Positions 10,698 to 16,095 of a stretch of DNA of 64,000 nucleotides are shown piece by piece; positions within the stretch are counted from its first letter, which is position 1, and each line of letters begins with the position of its first letter. The notes beneath the pieces are model-generated. The model did not search any database and was not told the DNA's origin. It was given only the letters and a program-made list of their open reading frames with translations. The translations under genes were made by a program, and so were the position numbers. The DNA comes from Escherichia coli. GTDB lineage: Bacteria > Pseudomonadota > Gammaproteobacteria > Enterobacterales > Enterobacteriaceae. The DNA lies in the NCBI RefSeq assembly GCF_044324785.1, contig NZ_CP172127.1. One strand, written 5' to 3'.

Positions 10698-11522
10698 ATG
10701 CAATCACTACATGGGAATTGTCTAATTGCGTACGCAAGACATAAATATATTCTCACCATGGTTAATGGTGAATATCGCTATTTTAATGGCGGTGACCTGG
10801 TTTTTGCGGATGCAAGCCAAATTCGAGTAGATAAGTGTGTTGAACATTTCATATTAGTTTCAAGGGATACGCTTTCATTATTTCTCCCGATGCTCAAGGA
10901 GGAGGCATTAAAACTTCATGCACATAAAAAAGTTCCTTCATTACTCGTTCATCACTGTACCAGAGATATTCCTGTTTTTCAGGAAGTTGCGCAACTATCG
11001 CAGAATAAGAATCTTCGCTATGCAGAAACGCTACGTAAAAGAGCATTAATCTTTGCGCTGTTATCTGTTTTTCTGGAGGATGAGCAGTTTATACCGCTAC
11101 TTCTGAACGTTTTGCAACCGAACATGCGAACACGAGTTTGTACGGTTATCAATAATAATATCGCACATGAGTGGACACTAGCCCGAATCGCCAGCGAGCT
11201 GTTGATGAGTCCAAGCCTGTTAAAGAAAAAATTGCGCGAAGAAGAGACTTCATATTCACAGTTGCTTACTGAGTGTAGAATGCAACGTGCTTTGCAACTT
11301 ATTGTTATACATGGTTTTTCAATTAAGCGAGTTGCAGTGTCCTGTGGATATCACAGCGTGTCGTATTTCATTTACGTTTTTCGAAATTATTATGGGATGA
11401 CGCCCACAGAGTATCAGGAGCGATCAGCGCAGGGATTGCCGAACCGTGACTCGGCGGCAAGTATTGTTGCACAAGGGAATTTTTACGGCACTGACCGTTC
11501 TGCGGAAGGAATAAGATTGTAG
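10698..11522 (+). CDS. gadX: AraC-family acid-resistance regulator GadX (274 aa)
   Basis: C-terminal AraC-type HTH domain; AT-rich; position downstream of gadA. Confidence 0.9.
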   Translation: MQSLHGNCLIAYARHKYILTMVNGEYRYFNGGDLVFADASQIRVDKCVEHFILVSRDTLSLFLPMLKEEALKLHAHKKVPSLLVHHCTRDIPVFQEVAQLSQNKNLRYAETLRKRALIFALLSVFLEDEQFIPLLLNVLQPNMRTRVCTVINNNIAHEWTLARIASELLMSPSLLKKKLREEETSYSQLLTECRMQRALQLIVIHGFSIKRVAVSCGYHSVSYFIYVFRNYYGMTPTEYQERSAQGLPNRDSAASIVAQGNFYGTDRSAEGIRL

Positions 11523-11538
11523 AGTTTTACTCAGAGAT

Positions 11539-11644
11539 AAAAAAAACCCGGCATAGGGGACCGGGAAGAGGATAGTCTGCCGTCTCCAGACTAATAAACC
11601 GTTATAACACTCCCTGTTGGCACGGGAAACTTTGTGCTCTCAGT
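11539..11644 (-). ncRNA. gadY: GadY small RNA, antisense to the gadX 3' end
   Basis: Minus-strand sequence actgagagcacaaagtttcccgtgccaacaggg...cccggttttttt matches recalled GadY and ends in a hairpin plus U-run; ends approximate. Confidence 0.7.
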
Positions 11645-11890
11645 AAGTTAAATATAACTTTTACTGGAAATAAGATCAGCCATTTTTTTATAAACATAAG
11701 CTATACGCTGTGCGAAAATATATTCGTGCTGCATTTACTTATTATCAATTAACTGTTATGCAAAACTACTTTGTGGATAAATTTTGGTCCTACCAAATCT
11801 GGCAGTTTTTGCGCTAAGAAACAGTCTGGCATCATTTCATTAGTATACTGAAATTGAAATAATCGCAGTAATGAAATATAAGGGATAGTC

Positions 11891-12619
11891 ATGACTCATG
11901 TCTGCTCGGTGATCCTCGTTCGTCGTTCATTTGATATTTATCATGAACAGCAAAAAATATCGTTGCACAACGAGAGTATCCTGTTACTGGATAAAAATTT
12001 GGCAGACGATTTTGCGTTTTGTTCACCGGATACGCGACGACTGGATATCGATGAGCTGACAGTTTGCCATTACTTACAAAATATTCGTCAGATACCACGC
12101 AATTTAGGGTTACATAGCAAAGACCGTCTGTTAATTAACCAGTCACCCCCCATGCCGCTGGTGACGGCGATTTTTGATAGTTTCAATGAATCAGGGGTAA
12201 ATTCACCGATACTGAGCAAAATGCTCTATCTTTCCTGTTTATCGATGTTTTCTCATAAGAAAGAACTGATCCCCTTACTTTTCAATAGTATCAGTACTGT
12301 TTCAGGAAAAGTTGAACGCCTTATTAGCTTTGATATCGCCAAACGTTGGTATCTGCGCGATATCGCGGAAAGAATGTATACCAGCGAGAGTCTCATCAAA
12401 AAAAAGTTGCAGGATGAAAATACCTGTTTCAGTAAAATATTACTCGCCTCCAGGATGTCGATGGCCAGACGATTACTCGAGTTACGTCAAATTCCTCTGC
12501 ATACTATTGCGGAAAAATGTGGATATAGCAGTACGTCGTACTTTATAAACACATTTCGACAATATTATGGTGTAACGCCACATCAGTTTGCGCAACATTC
12601 GCCAGGTACCTTTTCCTGA
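11891..12619 (+). CDS. gadW: AraC-family regulator GadW (242 aa)
   Basis: AraC-type C-terminal HTH; paralogous to gadX; conserved position. Confidence 0.9.
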   Translation: MTHVCSVILVRRSFDIYHEQQKISLHNESILLLDKNLADDFAFCSPDTRRLDIDELTVCHYLQNIRQIPRNLGLHSKDRLLINQSPPMPLVTAIFDSFNESGVNSPILSKMLYLSCLSMFSHKKELIPLLFNSISTVSGKVERLISFDIAKRWYLRDIAERMYTSESLIKKKLQDENTCFSKILLASRMSMARRLLELRQIPLHTIAEKCGYSSTSYFINTFRQYYGVTPHQFAQHSPGTFS

Positions 12620-12981
12620 CATATTTCGCATTTGAATATTGGTCAGGATCTCACACCTGCTTCATGTGAAACTCTTCCCTGATGATTTCTGCCGGGCTAC
12701 CGGCTAGTTCTCTTTCGCAGTTTGCCAGGCGGTATAGGTATTTTCAGGAGGAAAAGACTCGGCATGTTTGGGATTATTAAGCTGACAATTCATACGATTA
12801 CGGGAATGTGGGTCAGTATTGTGCTGTTCAAATTGATGACGAATGGCTGGAGTGGTTTCTACTTTCAGTGCTGTGTACTAAGCCTGGTATTCCTGACGGT
12901 TAGCTGGTTGTTGAGTGGTGAATGGTTAGCAGGAAAGAGTAAGGCTGAACCTTCACGTTCAACCTTACTCTCATTTACACG

Positions 12982-15900
12982 TTACGCTTTTTTAAAGCGG
13001 GCAAAGAGATGTTCCACTACAACGAAAAAGACCGGAACGAAGTAAATGGCCAGCACTGTTGCGGCAAACATCCCGCCCATCACGCCGGTACCTACCGCGT
13101 TTTGCGCGCCAGAACCGGCACCATGACTGATAACCAGCGGCAGCACGCCGAGAATAAAGGCCAGAGAGGTCATCAGGATTGGGCGTAAACGCATTCGCGC
13201 CGCTTCGATGATCGCCTCTATCGGCGTTTTCCCTTCTTTCTGCATCATCTCAACGGCAAATTCGACAATCAGGATGGCGTTCTTGGCAGAAAGCCCGATG
13301 GTGGTCAGCAAACCAACCTGGAAGTAGACATCATTACTTAAGCCGCGTAGATCGGTGGCCAGTAATGCGCCAACGACGCCTAACGGTACAACCAACATCA
13401 CCGAGAACGGAATTGACCAGCTCTCATAAAGTGCGGCGAGGGCGAGGAACACCACGACCAGTGAAATGGCATACAGCGCAGGAGCCTGGTTTGAGGATAA
13501 CGCTTCCTGATACGACAGTCCGGTCCATGAGTAGCCGACGCCTGCCGGAAGTTTAGCGACCAGGTCTGCCATAAATTTCATAGCGTCACCGGTACTTTTC
13601 CCGGCCGCCGCTTCACCTAAAATCTCCATTGACGGGATGCCGTTGTAGCGTTCCAGTCGCGGTGAACCATAGGTCCATTCGGTAGACGAGTAGGCAGAAA
13701 GCGGTGCCATCGTGCCAGAGGCGTTGCGTACATACCATTGGTTGATGTTATCCGGCAACATACGGAACGGCGTGCCTGCCTGGACATACACTTTTTTCAC
13801 CCGCCCCTGGTTGAGGAAGTCGTTCACGTAGCTGCTGCCGAAGGCGGTGGAAATTGTCTGGTTGATATCAGACAGCGCCACGCCCATTGCCTCGGCTTTC
13901 GCGGCGTTGACGTTCACTTTGAACATCGGCGTATCTTCCAGGCCGTTCGGGCGTACCCCGGTGACTTGATTTGGTGATTGCGCTGCCAGTGATAATAGCT
14001 CGTTTCGCGCCTGGGTCAGTTTTTCGTGCCCCAGGTTACCGTTGTCCAGCAGTTCCATATCAAAACCTGACGCGGTACCCAGTTCAGCCACCGCGGGTAA
14101 ATTGAACGGGAAGACGACGGCTTTATTGATACTGCTTAACGCAATCATTGCCCGCTGAATGATCGCGGTAACCGAGTTTTCCTCACCGACACGTTCAGAC
14201 CACGGCTTGAGACTGATAAACGCCAGGCCGTTGTTTTGCCCCTGGCCGCTGAAGCCAAAGCCGCCAACGGTAAATACCGACTGGACATTATCTTTCTCTT
14301 TAGTCAGATAATAATCCGTCACCTGTTGCAGCACTTTCGTGGTGTTAACCATGGTGGCACCGGAAGGTAACTGCGCGGTGGTCATAAATACCCCCTGATC
14401 CTCTTCTGGTAAGAAAGAGGTCGGCGTACGCAGGAACAGCACCGCCATCCCAGCGCAAATCAGCAGGTAGACCACCATGTAGCGACCGGTACAACGCAAC
14501 AGCGAGCGGGTGCTGTCGGTATAGTGCTGAGTTGATTTTTCAAACAGCGTGTTGAAGCGTGCGAACAGGGCGTTAGGTTTGTGACCGCCTTCCGGCGCGG
14601 CTTTCAGAATGGTGGCGCACAGGGCAGGGGTCAGGCTCATTGCCACAAATACTGAAAGCAGCATGGAGGAGATTAGCGTGATGGAGAACTGGCGGTAGAT
14701 CTCCCCGGTCGCACCGCTCATAAAGGCCATCGGCATAAACACTGCGGAAAGAACAACGGCAATCCCGACCAGCGCACGTTGGATCTGCCCCATCGATTTA
14801 TGCGTCGCTTCCTTCGGCGGTAGCTTATCTTCTGCAATGACACGCTCGACGTTCTCCACCACCACGATGGCGTCATCCACCAGTAACCCTATCGCCAGCA
14901 CCATCCCGAACATAGTTAACGTGTTGATGGTGAAACCGACCGCCGACAAGATCGCAAACGTCCCGAGAATAACCACCGGTACGGCAATCGTCGGGATGAT
15001 TGTGGCACGGAAATTCTGCAAAAACAGATACATTACCAGGAAGACGAGGATGATAGCCTCAACCAGTGTTTTAAAAACTTCCTGAATAGAAATTTCGATA
15101 AACGGCGTGGTGTCGTAAGGATAAACCGTCTTCAGACTTGCGGGGAAATAGGCTGATAAACGGTTCAGCTCCTCTTTGACTGCCCGCGAGGTATCCAGGG
15201 CGTTCGCTCCGGCAGCCAGTTTGATGGCGATCCCGGCCGCAGGTTTGCCGTTATAGCGCGCCACGGTGGAATAATCTTCCGCCCCAAGTTCGACGCGGGC
15301 GACATCACGCAGCAGCACTTGCGAACCATCTTGCTGAACTTTCAACAGGATTTTGCCAAATTCTTCCGGCGTTTGCAGACGCGTCTGCACAATGATCGAG
15401 GCGTTCAGTTGCTGGTCTGCCGCCTGTGGCATGCCACCCAGTTGACCACCAGAAATCTGGTTGTTTTGTACCTTAATCTGGGAAATAACATCGGAAGGTA
15501 CCAGGTTATATTTATTGAGTTTTTGCGGGTCCAGCCAGATACGCATGGCGTACTCGGAACCAAAGAGCTGTACGCTACCAACGCCCGCGGTACGGCTTAG
15601 CGGGTCTTTAATATTAGACGCTACATAGTCCGCGATATCGTACTGGTTGAGGCTGCCGTTATCAGAAATAAACGCCGCTACCATCAGGATATTACTGCTC
15701 GATTTATCGACGCTGATCCCCTGCTGCTGCACCGCTTCAGGTAATGAAGGCATAGCGAGTTGCAGTTTATTTTGCACCTGAACCTGTGCGATATCAGGAG
15801 ATGTCCCAGTCTCGAAGGTCAGAGTGATAGAGGCATTGCCCGCCGCATCACTGGTTGAAGACATGTACATCAGGCCATCAAGCCCATTCATATTTTGCTC

Positions 15901-16095
15901 AATCACCTGAGTGACCGAGTCTTCTACCGTTTGCGCATCGGCACCTGGATAGGTAGCGCTGACGGTAATGGTCGGTGGCGCAATCTGCGGATACTGCGCA
16001 ACCGGTAAGTTCATGATCGCCAGACCACCTGCAAGCATCATAATAATGGCAAGTACCCAGGCAAAAACCGGGCGATCAATAAAATAGTTAGCCAT
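12982..16095 (-). CDS. mdtF: RND multidrug efflux pump inner-membrane subunit MdtF (1037 aa)
   Basis: Full-length AcrB-like RND ORF; immediately downstream of mdtE. Confidence 0.95.

What the first reader, a model, noticed from the sequence alone, without database searches (positions are those of the whole stretch)
12764..13045. Candidate small membrane-protein ORF with strong SD between gadW and mdtF
An AGGAGG motif (12746-12751) precedes an ATG at 12764 opening a frame whose first about 60 residues form two hydrophobic segments (MFGIIKLTIHTITGMWVSIVLF…GFYFQCCVLSLVFLTVSWLL). The frame runs into the 3' end of mdtF on the opposite strand, so the true stop or length is doubtful. It is either an unannotated small protein or a chance ORF.
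Basis: seen in the sequence. Interest (0 to 1): 0.3.

Follow-up and report, generated by a model that had tools for sequence, protein, structure and literature searches.

The report
Acid-induced small membrane protein sORF15
The open reading frame between gadW and mdtF is a real but officially unannotated E. coli gene for a 93-residue two-helix membrane protein, already published in 2023 as the acid-induced candidate "sORF15"; comparison across Escherichia species now shows its protein sequence is under selection, but its function is still unknown.

Summary
AGGAGG lies at 12746-12751 and the ATG at 12764. The frame is 93 codons long, stops at 13043-13045, and overlaps the 3' end of mdtF by 64 nt.

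The ORF is not new. It is "sORF15" of Schumacher et al. 2023 (mSystems, PMC10746267; NC_000913.3:3663464-3663745, minus strand), found by ribosome profiling at pH 4.4. Ribosome footprints rose by log2 4.2 and RNA by log2 4.0. A FLAG-tagged copy expressed from a plasmid was detected. It is still missing from RefSeq annotation.

- The frame is intact at 93 codons in seven further Escherichia lineages, including E. albertii, E. whittamii and E. marmotae, with no indels and with the SD and ATG conserved.
- dN/dS is 0.07-0.12 in this frame, similar to gadW; the two other sense frames scatter around 1.
- In 13 E. coli sequences, 9 polymorphic sites are synonymous and 2 are not.
- E. fergusonii has a divergent 54-residue homologue at the same position that keeps only the two-helix core.

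Codons 58-70 lie over the likely mdtF terminator hairpin. Codons 74-93 are antisense to mdtF.

Verdict: a real, already reported gene. Function is unknown. The most likely role is modulation of a membrane transporter during acid stress, which is inference only.

The parts
12746..12751 (+). Shine-Dalgarno AGGAGG, 12 nt upstream of the ATG. It sits in the best-conserved block of the intergenic region (17 of 20 columns invariant in 12740-12759).
12764..13045 (+). sORF15 coding sequence: 93 codons plus a TAA stop. This is the finding itself.
   Evidence: (identity with published sORF15)
12773..12829 (+). Predicted transmembrane helix 1, about residues 4-22 (AlphaFold2 helix 2-26).
   Evidence: DeepTMHMM result reported in PMC10746267
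12842..12874 (+). Most conserved protein segment, N27-G-W-S-G-F-Y-F-Q-C-C37, covering the short loop and the start of helix 2. E. fergusonii retains GWSGF.F.CC. By the positive-inside rule it probably faces the periplasm.
12854..12931 (+). Predicted transmembrane helix 2, about residues 31-56.
12936..12971 (-). 16-bp hairpin starting 11 nt after the mdtF stop codon; probably the mdtF (gadE-mdtEF) terminator or 3' stabiliser. It lies inside sORF15 codons 58-70. It is more stable on the minus strand (-25 to -27 kcal/mol, z = -5.2), and one stem pair shows a compensatory change.
12982..13045 (.). 64-nt antisense overlap between sORF15 codons 74-93 and the last 21 codons (including the stop) of mdtF. 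Third codon positions of the two genes coincide, and all 5 variable sites fall on them.
11891..12619 (+). gadW, the upstream gene on the same strand. The published RNA-seq and Ribo-seq place sORF15 in its long 3' UTR, that is, in the same transcription unit.
12982..16095 (-). mdtF, the convergent RND efflux permease gene.

Best explanation
This is a real protein-coding gene, the published candidate sORF15. It encodes a 93-residue inner-membrane protein and is transcribed as the distal part of the gadW (gadXW) message when E. coli meets severe acid.

Shown:
- The ORF, its SD and its ATG exist and are conserved across Escherichia.
- The amino-acid sequence of the two-helix core (residues 1-52) is under purifying selection as strong as that on gadW.
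- A shorter homologue holding only this core sits at the same place in E. fergusonii.
- Ribosome footprints and RNA rise about 16-fold at pH 4.4 (literature).

Inferred:
- Topology is N-in/C-in, with a short periplasmic loop (TNGWSG) and a strongly basic cytoplasmic tail (net +9).
- The functional unit is the helical hairpin with its invariant GWSGF.F.CC segment.
- The protein works as most characterised small membrane proteins do, by binding and tuning a larger membrane protein. The partner I judge most likely is the neighbouring efflux pump MdtF (MdtEF-TolC), with GadC as the alternative. This partner assignment is a guess from gene position and precedent.
- Residues 53-93 are encoded over the mdtF terminator hairpin and antisense to the mdtF C-terminus. 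Their conservation may owe more to those overlapping features than to the protein's own needs.
For: Identity with sORF15:
- Coordinates and sequence match, 92 of 93 residues identical. K-12 has C65 where the window has R65.

Translation and induction (literature):
- Ribo-seq log2FC 4.21 (padj 1e-38), RNA log2FC 4.03, translation efficiency unchanged.
- Even coverage across the ORF.
- FLAG Western blot from pBAD24.
- DeepTMHMM predicts two transmembrane helices.

Selection:
- The 93-codon frame is intact, with the ATG and TTTTCAGGAGGAAAA conserved and no indels in 282 nt, in K-12, two further E. coli-cluster genomes, E. coli E69, Escherichia sp. E1V33, E. whittamii, E. albertii and E. marmotae.
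- Nei-Gojobori dN/dS over the 72 non-overlapping codons is 0.07-0.12 at dS 0.75-0.84. The two other sense frames scatter around 1 (0.65-3.1 in the three most divergent comparisons).
- For the helical core, dN/dS is 0.04-0.12 with bootstrap upper bounds of 0.30 or less.
- Variable sites by codon position are 20/14/41 (chi-square p = 3e-4). This frame has no stops, against 3-9 in each of the other five frames.
- gadW gives dN/dS 0.07-0.10 for the same pairs.
- In 11 evenly sampled complete E. coli genomes plus K-12 and the window, the ORF is intact in all. Polymorphic sites are 9 synonymous and 2 non-synonymous (binomial P = 5e-5).

E. fergusonii homologue:
- P0050 is 54 residues, 49% identical over 41 residues, and lies between a GadW orthologue (62% identity) and mdtF.
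- Differences by codon position are 22/10/38. pN/pS is 0.32, against 0.29 for gadW.

Population spread:
- The region is present in 5414 of 5426 complete E. coli genomes.
Against: - The native protein has never been detected from the chromosome. The Western blot used an arabinose-induced plasmid construct.
- The SD-to-ATG spacing of 12 nt is longer than optimal. The E. fergusonii homologue has no SD and a GTG start.
- The ORF is absent from the Ribo-RET supplement of Stringer et al. 2021 as held, and from the PIRT-seq supplements. Those experiments were not done in acid.
- Rare natural disruptions exist: an IS66 insertion in an O121 strain and a 1-nt deletion allele giving a 76-residue protein. 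Loss is therefore tolerated at least in some backgrounds.
- No homologue, Pfam or NCBIfam family, solved structure or fold match gives any clue to function.
- The proposed partner (MdtF or GadC) has no direct support.
- Low dN/dS in codons 53-93 is confounded by the mdtF hairpin and the mdtF coding sequence.
Confidence: 0.9

Rival explanations
1. The ORF is translated noise. Ribosomes load on the long gadW 3' UTR because it happens to carry an SD and an ATG, but the product has no function and the frame persists by chance.
For: Placing the observed substitutions at random leaves the frame stop-free with probability 0.24-0.40 per divergent lineage, so ORF survival on its own is only weak evidence. 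The SD spacing is suboptimal. Translation efficiency does not change with acid. Its neighbour sORF14, from the same study, is not conserved.
Against: dN/dS is about 0.1 in this frame only. Variation peaks at third codon positions. Polymorphism within E. coli is 9 synonymous to 2 non-synonymous. There are no indels, whereas the upstream spacer has several. The SD block is conserved. A syntenic homologue exists in E. fergusonii.
Confidence: 0.04
2. The conservation reflects non-coding functions of this DNA: the mdtF terminator and 3' end on the minus strand, and an antisense gadW 3' UTR that pairs with the mdtF mRNA (as GadY pairs with gadXW). On this view the act of translation matters and the peptide does not.
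For: A stable, conserved hairpin with a compensatory change occupies codons 58-70 and is better formed on the minus strand. Codons 74-93 are antisense to mdtF, and every variable site there sits on the shared third position. No terminator-like site was found on the plus strand for 1.2 kb, so gadW transcripts probably run antisense into mdtF. GadY shows that antisense control operates in this island.
Against: These features cover only codons 58-93. Codons 1-52 lie in otherwise unconstrained spacer, yet they show the strongest codon-periodic constraint (dN/dS 0.04-0.12). The wobble-sharing antisense frame has 3 stops in every species. The E. fergusonii homologue keeps the helical core while lacking both overlaps.
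Confidence: 0.05
3. It is a type I toxin-like membrane peptide, held in check by antisense pairing with the convergent mdtF transcript.
For: The product is small and hydrophobic with a basic tail, and the mRNA overlaps a convergent transcript.
Against: At 93 residues with two helices it does not look like the usual toxins, which are under 60 residues with a single helix. No dedicated antisense sRNA is known or found: Rfam returns only GadY, which lies elsewhere. The antisense overlap is at the 3' end, not at the ribosome-binding site. The protein accumulated to detectable levels after 1 h of arabinose induction, and no toxicity was reported in the passages of the paper I read. It sits in a regulated stress operon.
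Confidence: 0.02

Closest known systems
sORF15 of Schumacher et al. 2023 (mSystems 8:e01037-23, PMC10746267)
   Same: It is the same locus. The window ORF maps to NC_000913.3:3663464-3663745 (minus strand), has the same start, stop and length, and is 92/93 identical (R65 in the window, C65 in K-12).
   Different: Nothing substantive. This report adds evidence absent from the paper: purifying selection across Escherichia, the short E. fergusonii homologue, and the overlap with the mdtF hairpin. The paper's listed homologues in Vibrio, Klebsiella, Salmonella and Enterococcus were not reproduced. A profile search of 1.84 billion representative proteins returned only variants and fragments of this same ORF family. 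Every hit whose source I could see or trace was Escherichia. Organism names are not available for most hits.
AcrZ, the 49-residue accessory protein of the RND pump AcrB
   Same: Both are small inner-membrane proteins of E. coli linked to an RND pump. AcrZ pulls down AcrB and, less strongly, MdtF (PMC11539335). This makes it a possible functional analogy.
   Different: There is no sequence relationship and no Pfam hit at E up to 10. sORF15 has two helices and 93 residues, against one helix and 49 residues. It is encoded convergent to the pump gene rather than regulated alongside it by MarA/Rob/SoxS (the latter from general knowledge). No binding data exist.
Other small membrane regulators of transporters and sensors (MgtS, MgtR, KdpF, SgrT, MgrB; general knowledge)
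   Same: Small, hydrophobic, stress-induced and co-transcribed with regulators or transporters. They act by protein-protein contact in the membrane.
   Different: These are analogies only. No homology exists, and sORF15 is larger than most of them.
GadY/gadXW antisense arrangement in the same island
   Same: Overlapping convergent transcription within the acid fitness island.
   Different: GadY is a non-coding sRNA. Here the overlapping RNA carries a coding sequence that is under selection.

Membership tests
sORF15 (published candidate small ORF of E. coli K-12) | Same genomic position, strand, start and stop as NC_000913.3:3663464-3663745 (-) | tested here: met
   The window-to-K-12 alignment has no indels. 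The ATG at 12764 maps to 3663745 and the stop end at 13045 maps to 3663464.
sORF15 (published candidate small ORF of E. coli K-12) | Same protein sequence | tested here: met
   92/93 identical. The single difference is R65C.
Bona fide protein-coding gene | Purifying selection on the encoded amino-acid sequence, in this frame only | tested here: met
   dN/dS is 0.07-0.12 in this frame; the two other sense frames scatter around 1. Variable sites by codon position are 20/14/41. Within E. coli, 9 polymorphic sites are synonymous and 2 are not.
Bona fide protein-coding gene | Conserved start codon and ribosome-binding site | tested here: met
   The ATG and AGGAGG are invariant in all nine 93-codon sequences and in 11 sampled E. 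coli genomes. This does not hold in E. fergusonii, which has a GTG start and no SD.
Bona fide protein-coding gene | Ribosome occupancy of the ORF | not testable with these tools
   Taken from the literature: Ribo-seq log2FC 4.2 at pH 4.4, with even coverage (PMC10746267).
Bona fide protein-coding gene | Detection of the native protein from the chromosome | not testable with these tools
   Only a pBAD24 3xFLAG construct has been shown.
AcrZ family (RND pump accessory small protein) | Sequence match to the AcrZ Pfam family | tested here: not met
   No Pfam or NCBIfam hit at E up to 10.
AcrZ family (RND pump accessory small protein) | Single transmembrane helix, about 50 residues | tested here: not met
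   Two hydrophobic helices and 93 residues.
AcrZ family (RND pump accessory small protein) | Physical binding to an RND permease | not testable with these tools
   No data exist. The only hint is its position next to mdtF.
Type I toxin-antitoxin | Short (<60 aa) single-helix toxin with a dedicated antisense sRNA covering its translation start | tested here: not met
   93 residues and two helices. The antisense overlap is at the 3' end. No sRNA family was found apart from GadY, at 11534-11647.
Intrinsic terminator (of mdtF, minus strand, 12971-12936) | Stable GC-containing hairpin directly after the stop codon | tested here: met
   16 bp, -27.3 kcal/mol, z = -5.2, conserved with one compensatory pair.
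Intrinsic terminator (of mdtF, minus strand, 12971-12936) | U-tract immediately after the stem | tested here: inconclusive
   The tail is CUCUUUCCUG, which is pyrimidine-rich but not a clean U-run. The consensus scan did not call it.

The most novel reading that the evidence does not exclude
sORF15 is a genus-specific, acid-induced accessory subunit that binds the MdtF permease (or GadC) through its conserved GWSGF.F.CC hairpin and changes transport during passage through the stomach. Its 40-residue basic tail differs between lineages because the ORF either reads through the mdtF terminator into the antisense strand of mdtF or stops before it. E. coli and E. albertii have the 93-residue form; E. 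fergusonii has the 54-residue core only. This would be a small, traceable case of a protein extending over a neighbour's terminator and coding sequence.
Probability: 0.2. Interest if true: 0.55.

Novelty: already known. Interest (0 to 1): 0.3.

Why it matters
E. coli K-12 is the best-annotated bacterium, yet this gene in its acid fitness island is still missing from RefSeq. The evolutionary evidence here, added to the published ribosome profiling, is enough to justify annotating it. It also justifies testing whether the protein modulates MdtEF efflux or the Gad acid-resistance system. In addition, the locus is a compact example of one stretch of DNA carrying a coding sequence, a neighbour's terminator hairpin and an antisense coding overlap. 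Because the ORF is already published, the value for a discovery scan is modest.

Tried and rejected
- Pfam and NCBIfam scans of the protein: no hit at E up to 10.
- Profile search of 1.84 billion representative proteins: only variants and fragments of this locus, plus the E. fergusonii homologue.
- PDB sequence search and Foldseek of the AlphaFold2 model against the PDB: nothing. The model is low confidence (pLDDT 64), so the fold search had little power.
- Rfam on 11400-13300: only GadY, and no RNA family over the ORF.
- Promoter and terminator scans: no convincing promoter for the ORF itself, one weak GC hairpin at 12691-12704, and no plus-strand terminator for 1.2 kb beyond the ORF.
- Follow-up papers: none found, searching by name, peptide, coordinates and topic.
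- Stringer et al. 2021 supplement and PIRT-seq supplements: the ORF is not listed.
- sORF14 (12666-12707) as a conserved partner peptide: rejected, because its stop, start and length vary between species.
- An upstream in-frame TTG start at 12722 (107 aa): rejected. The upstream spacer shows no codon periodicity (21/20/19), and the E. fergusonii homologue begins at the position equivalent to the ATG.
- Modelling a fused MdtF-sORF15 complex: considered and not run, because the tool returns no inter-chain contacts or PAE and the result could not have been interpreted.
- ORF survival alone as evidence: the simulation shows it is weak, so the argument rests on dN/dS and polymorphism.
Full report
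**1. The observation**

AGGAGG occupies 12746-12751. An ATG at 12764 opens a 282-nt frame that ends with TAA at 13043-13045 and encodes 93 residues. The spacer between AGGAGG and the ATG is 12 nt, which is longer than the usual optimum.

gadW is at 11891..12619 on the same strand. mdtF is at 12982..16095 on the opposite strand. The ORF therefore begins 144 nt after gadW and overlaps the last 64 nt of mdtF. GadY (Rfam, 147 bits) and gadX lie just upstream, so the window covers the E. coli acid fitness island.

Neither MG1655 RefSeq nor the PGAP annotations of the E. coli genomes shown list any gene between gadW and mdtF. The region itself is nearly universal: it is present in 5414 of 5426 complete E. 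coli genomes at 95% identity or more.

**2. It has already been described**

A full-text search led to Schumacher et al. 2023 (mSystems 8:e01037-23, PMC10746267). Their Table S7 lists "sORF15" at NC_000913.3:3663464-3663745 (minus strand), 93 aa, ATG start, TAA stop, flanked by mdtF and gadW. Those are the K-12 coordinates I had calculated for the window ORF from the indel-free alignment. The protein is identical except for residue 65, which is R in the window and C in K-12.

The authors found it by inspecting the long gadW 3' UTR in ribosome-profiling data. Their results:
- At pH 4.4 versus 7.6, footprints rose by log2 4.21 (padj 1e-38) and RNA by log2 4.03, with translation efficiency unchanged.
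- At pH 5.8 there was no induction.
- Coverage was even across the ORF.
- DeepTMHMM predicted two transmembrane helices.
- A pBAD24 construct carrying 15 native upstream nucleotides and a 3xFLAG tag gave a Western signal.

They suggested a link to GadC or MdtF but did not test it. I found no follow-up work in the held library. The ORF is not in the Ribo-RET supplement of Stringer et al. 2021 as held, nor in the PIRT-seq supplements. This fits expression that is specific to acid.

**3.

A scan of one genome per species using GadW returned six loci: two further E. coli-cluster genomes, E. coli E69, Escherichia sp. E1V33, E. whittamii and E. albertii. E. marmotae came from a protein look-up.

In all of them the frame is intact at 93 codons. 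The ATG and the block TTTTCAGGAGGAAAA are conserved, and there is no indel anywhere in the 282 nt. The 144-nt spacer upstream, by contrast, has indels in several lineages.

Nucleotide identity to E. albertii by region:

| Region | Identity |
|---|---|
| gadW | 74% |
| Upstream spacer | 76% |
| Non-overlapping part of the ORF | 85% |

Selection over the 72 non-overlapping codons:
- Nei-Gojobori dN/dS is 0.07-0.12 against the three most divergent species, at dS 0.75-0.84.
- The two other sense frames scatter around 1 (0.65-3.1 in those comparisons).
- The antisense frame that shares wobble positions also scores low, as expected. It has three stops in every species, so it cannot be coding.
- Variable sites fall 20/14/41 on codon positions 1/2/3 (chi-square p = 3e-4). 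In the spacer the split is 21/20/19.
- gadW gives dN/dS 0.07-0.10 for the same pairs, so the small ORF is as constrained as its well-known neighbour.

Within E. coli, I sampled 11 genomes evenly down the similarity ranking and added K-12 and the window. All have the ORF, SD and ATG intact. The 11 polymorphic sites are 9 synonymous and 2 non-synonymous, against an expected synonymous share of 22% (P = 5e-5).

Survival of the open frame by itself is only weak evidence. A simulation gave a probability of 0.24-0.40 per divergent lineage. The case therefore rests on the substitution pattern.

**4. A shorter homologue in E. fergusonii**

A profile search of 1.84 billion representative proteins returned only variants and fragments of this locus, with one exception. 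That exception is a 54-residue protein, MIVGIIKLALLGITAISVCMVLLNLILHGWSGFFFHCCLICLGLLASCLVVNKN.

It is encoded in E. fergusonii ATCC 35469 at the syntenic position. It starts 19 nt after a GadW orthologue (62% identity) and ends 41 nt before mdtF, which is followed by mdtE, gadE and hdeD.

Its features:
- It is 49% identical to the E. coli protein over 41 residues.
- Differences fall 22/10/38 by codon position, and pN/pS is 0.32, against 0.29 for gadW.
- It has only the two hydrophobic helices.
- It stops just before a strong bidirectional hairpin.
- It has a GTG start and no SD.

The conserved unit is therefore the helical hairpin. Its core is the segment G28-W-S-G-F-x-F-x-C-C37.

**5. Anatomy of the E. 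coli protein and of the DNA under it**

Hydrophobicity and AlphaFold2 (pLDDT 64, low confidence) agree on helices at about 4-22/2-26 and 31-56/31-58, plus a third, amphipathic-looking helix at 65-88. The segment from residue 52 onward has 11 Lys/Arg and a net charge of +9. By the positive-inside rule, both termini are probably cytoplasmic and the TNGWSG loop periplasmic. This topology is an inference.

The DNA for residues 58-70 (12936-12971) forms a 16-bp hairpin. It is more stable on the minus strand (-27.3 kcal/mol, z = -5.2; perfect stem with G-U pairs) than on the plus strand, which has one A-C mismatch. It starts 11 nt after the mdtF stop and is conserved in all species, with one compensatory pair in E1V33. 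It is most likely the terminator or 3' stabiliser of the gadE-mdtEF transcript. Its tail (CUCUUUCCUG) is not a clean U-tract.

Residues 74-93 are antisense to the MdtF C-terminus. The two genes share third codon positions there, and all five variable sites sit on those positions. The constraint on residues 53-93 therefore cannot be credited to sORF15 alone.

The helical core gives dN/dS 0.04-0.12, with bootstrap upper limits of 0.30 or less. It lies in DNA with no other known function.

**6. How it most likely works**

Shown:
- It is a conserved, translated, acid-induced coding sequence in the gadW transcription unit.
- It encodes a hydrophobic two-helix core.

Inferred:
- It is an inner-membrane protein that acts by contact with a larger membrane protein, as AcrZ, MgtS, KdpF or MgrB do (general knowledge).

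The only conserved neighbours across all species, including E. fergusonii (whose locus shows no gadX or gadA beside the gadW orthologue), are gadW and mdtFE-gadE. This slightly favours MdtF over GadC as the partner. I put about 0.2-0.3 on MdtF specifically.

The protein is not a member of the AcrZ family. It has no Pfam hit and has two helices rather than one.

**7. Rivals**

- Translated noise is contradicted by the substitution pattern.
- A purely RNA-level explanation (mdtF terminator, antisense 3' UTR) accounts for codons 58-93 but not for codons 1-52 or for the E. fergusonii core.
- A type I toxin is unlikely, given the size, the two helices, the position of the antisense overlap at the 3' end, and easy accumulation on induction.

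**8. Caveats**

- The native protein has not been seen.
- The SD spacing is long.
- Rare natural disruptions exist: an IS66 insertion in one O121 genome, and a 1-nt deletion allele giving 76 residues in about 20 contigs.
- About seven of 5415 records lack a contiguous region.
- The 3' end of the plus-strand transcript is unknown. No terminator-like site occurs within 1.2 kb.
- My dN/dS values come from pairwise counting on nine to ten sequences, not from a phylogenetic codon model.

**9. Verdict**

The ORF is already in the literature as sORF15, so novelty is "already known". This analysis adds three things:
- evidence of purifying selection across the genus;
- the tail-less E. fergusonii homologue, which defines the functional core;
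- the observation that the C-terminal 40% of the E. coli protein is written over the mdtF terminator hairpin and the mdtF coding sequence.

Interest is modest (0.3). The gene deserves annotation and a functional test, but it is not a surprise.

Noticed in passing
window 12666-12707 (+): This is sORF14 (13 aa, GTG start) from the same 2023 paper. It is not conserved. In other Escherichia its TAG stop is AAG, its start is GTA in one lineage, and indels change its length from 6 to 38 residues. It is probably not a functional peptide.
   Followed up: partly
window 12936-12971 (-): A 16-bp hairpin starts 11 nt after the mdtF stop (-27 kcal/mol, z = -5.2). It is conserved, with a compensatory pair in Escherichia sp. 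E1V33, and lies inside sORF15 codons 58-70. Ribosomes translating sORF15 must unwind the plus-strand version of it.
   Followed up: yes
window 12982-13045: mdtF and sORF15 overlap antisense with their third codon positions aligned. All 5 variable sites in the overlap fall on that shared position, so both proteins are unchanged across species.
   Followed up: yes
window 12691-12704 (+): A small GC hairpin (GCCGG GCTA CCGGC) with a T-rich tail lies between gadW and sORF15. It is the only terminator-like call in the spacer, and its stem is partly kept in other species. It could attenuate read-through from gadW into sORF15.
   Followed up: no
L008 5244-6215 (E. fergusonii ATCC 35469, CU928158.2): At this locus E. 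fergusonii is more divergent from E. coli (GadW 62% identity) than E. albertii is (75%). Genome-wide, E. albertii is usually regarded as the more distant species (general knowledge). The small ORF there starts 19 nt after gadW and is followed by a strong bidirectional hairpin (GGCCGG..CCGGCC). No gadX or gadA is adjacent.
   Followed up: partly
L016 (E. coli O121 strain 201805972, NZ_CP119441.1), equivalent to window ~12804: An IS66-family element (tnpA/tnpB/tnpC) is inserted within sORF15 and separates gadW from mdtF. About 7 of 5415 matching records lack a contiguous region.
   Followed up: partly
L009-L012, equivalent to window 12932-12934: One A is deleted from the AAA run, which frameshifts the tail and gives a 76-residue protein (P0032). 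It occurs in about 20 contigs, three of the four read being on a K-12-like background. The helical core is unaffected.
   Followed up: partly
window 12950-14200 (+): No terminator-like site occurs on the plus strand beyond sORF15. Acid-induced gadW transcripts may therefore run antisense into mdtF for an unknown distance.
   Followed up: no
protein hits P0044, P0045: Some database 'homologues' are chimeras of the sORF15 N-terminus with unrelated sequence. One, for example, carries a Pfam PF02527 hit. Such assembly artefacts may explain the homologues the 2023 paper reported in unrelated genera.
   Followed up: no
window 11534-11647 (-): GadY sRNA, full-length Rfam match (147 bits), lies between gadX and gadW as expected.
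   Followed up: yes
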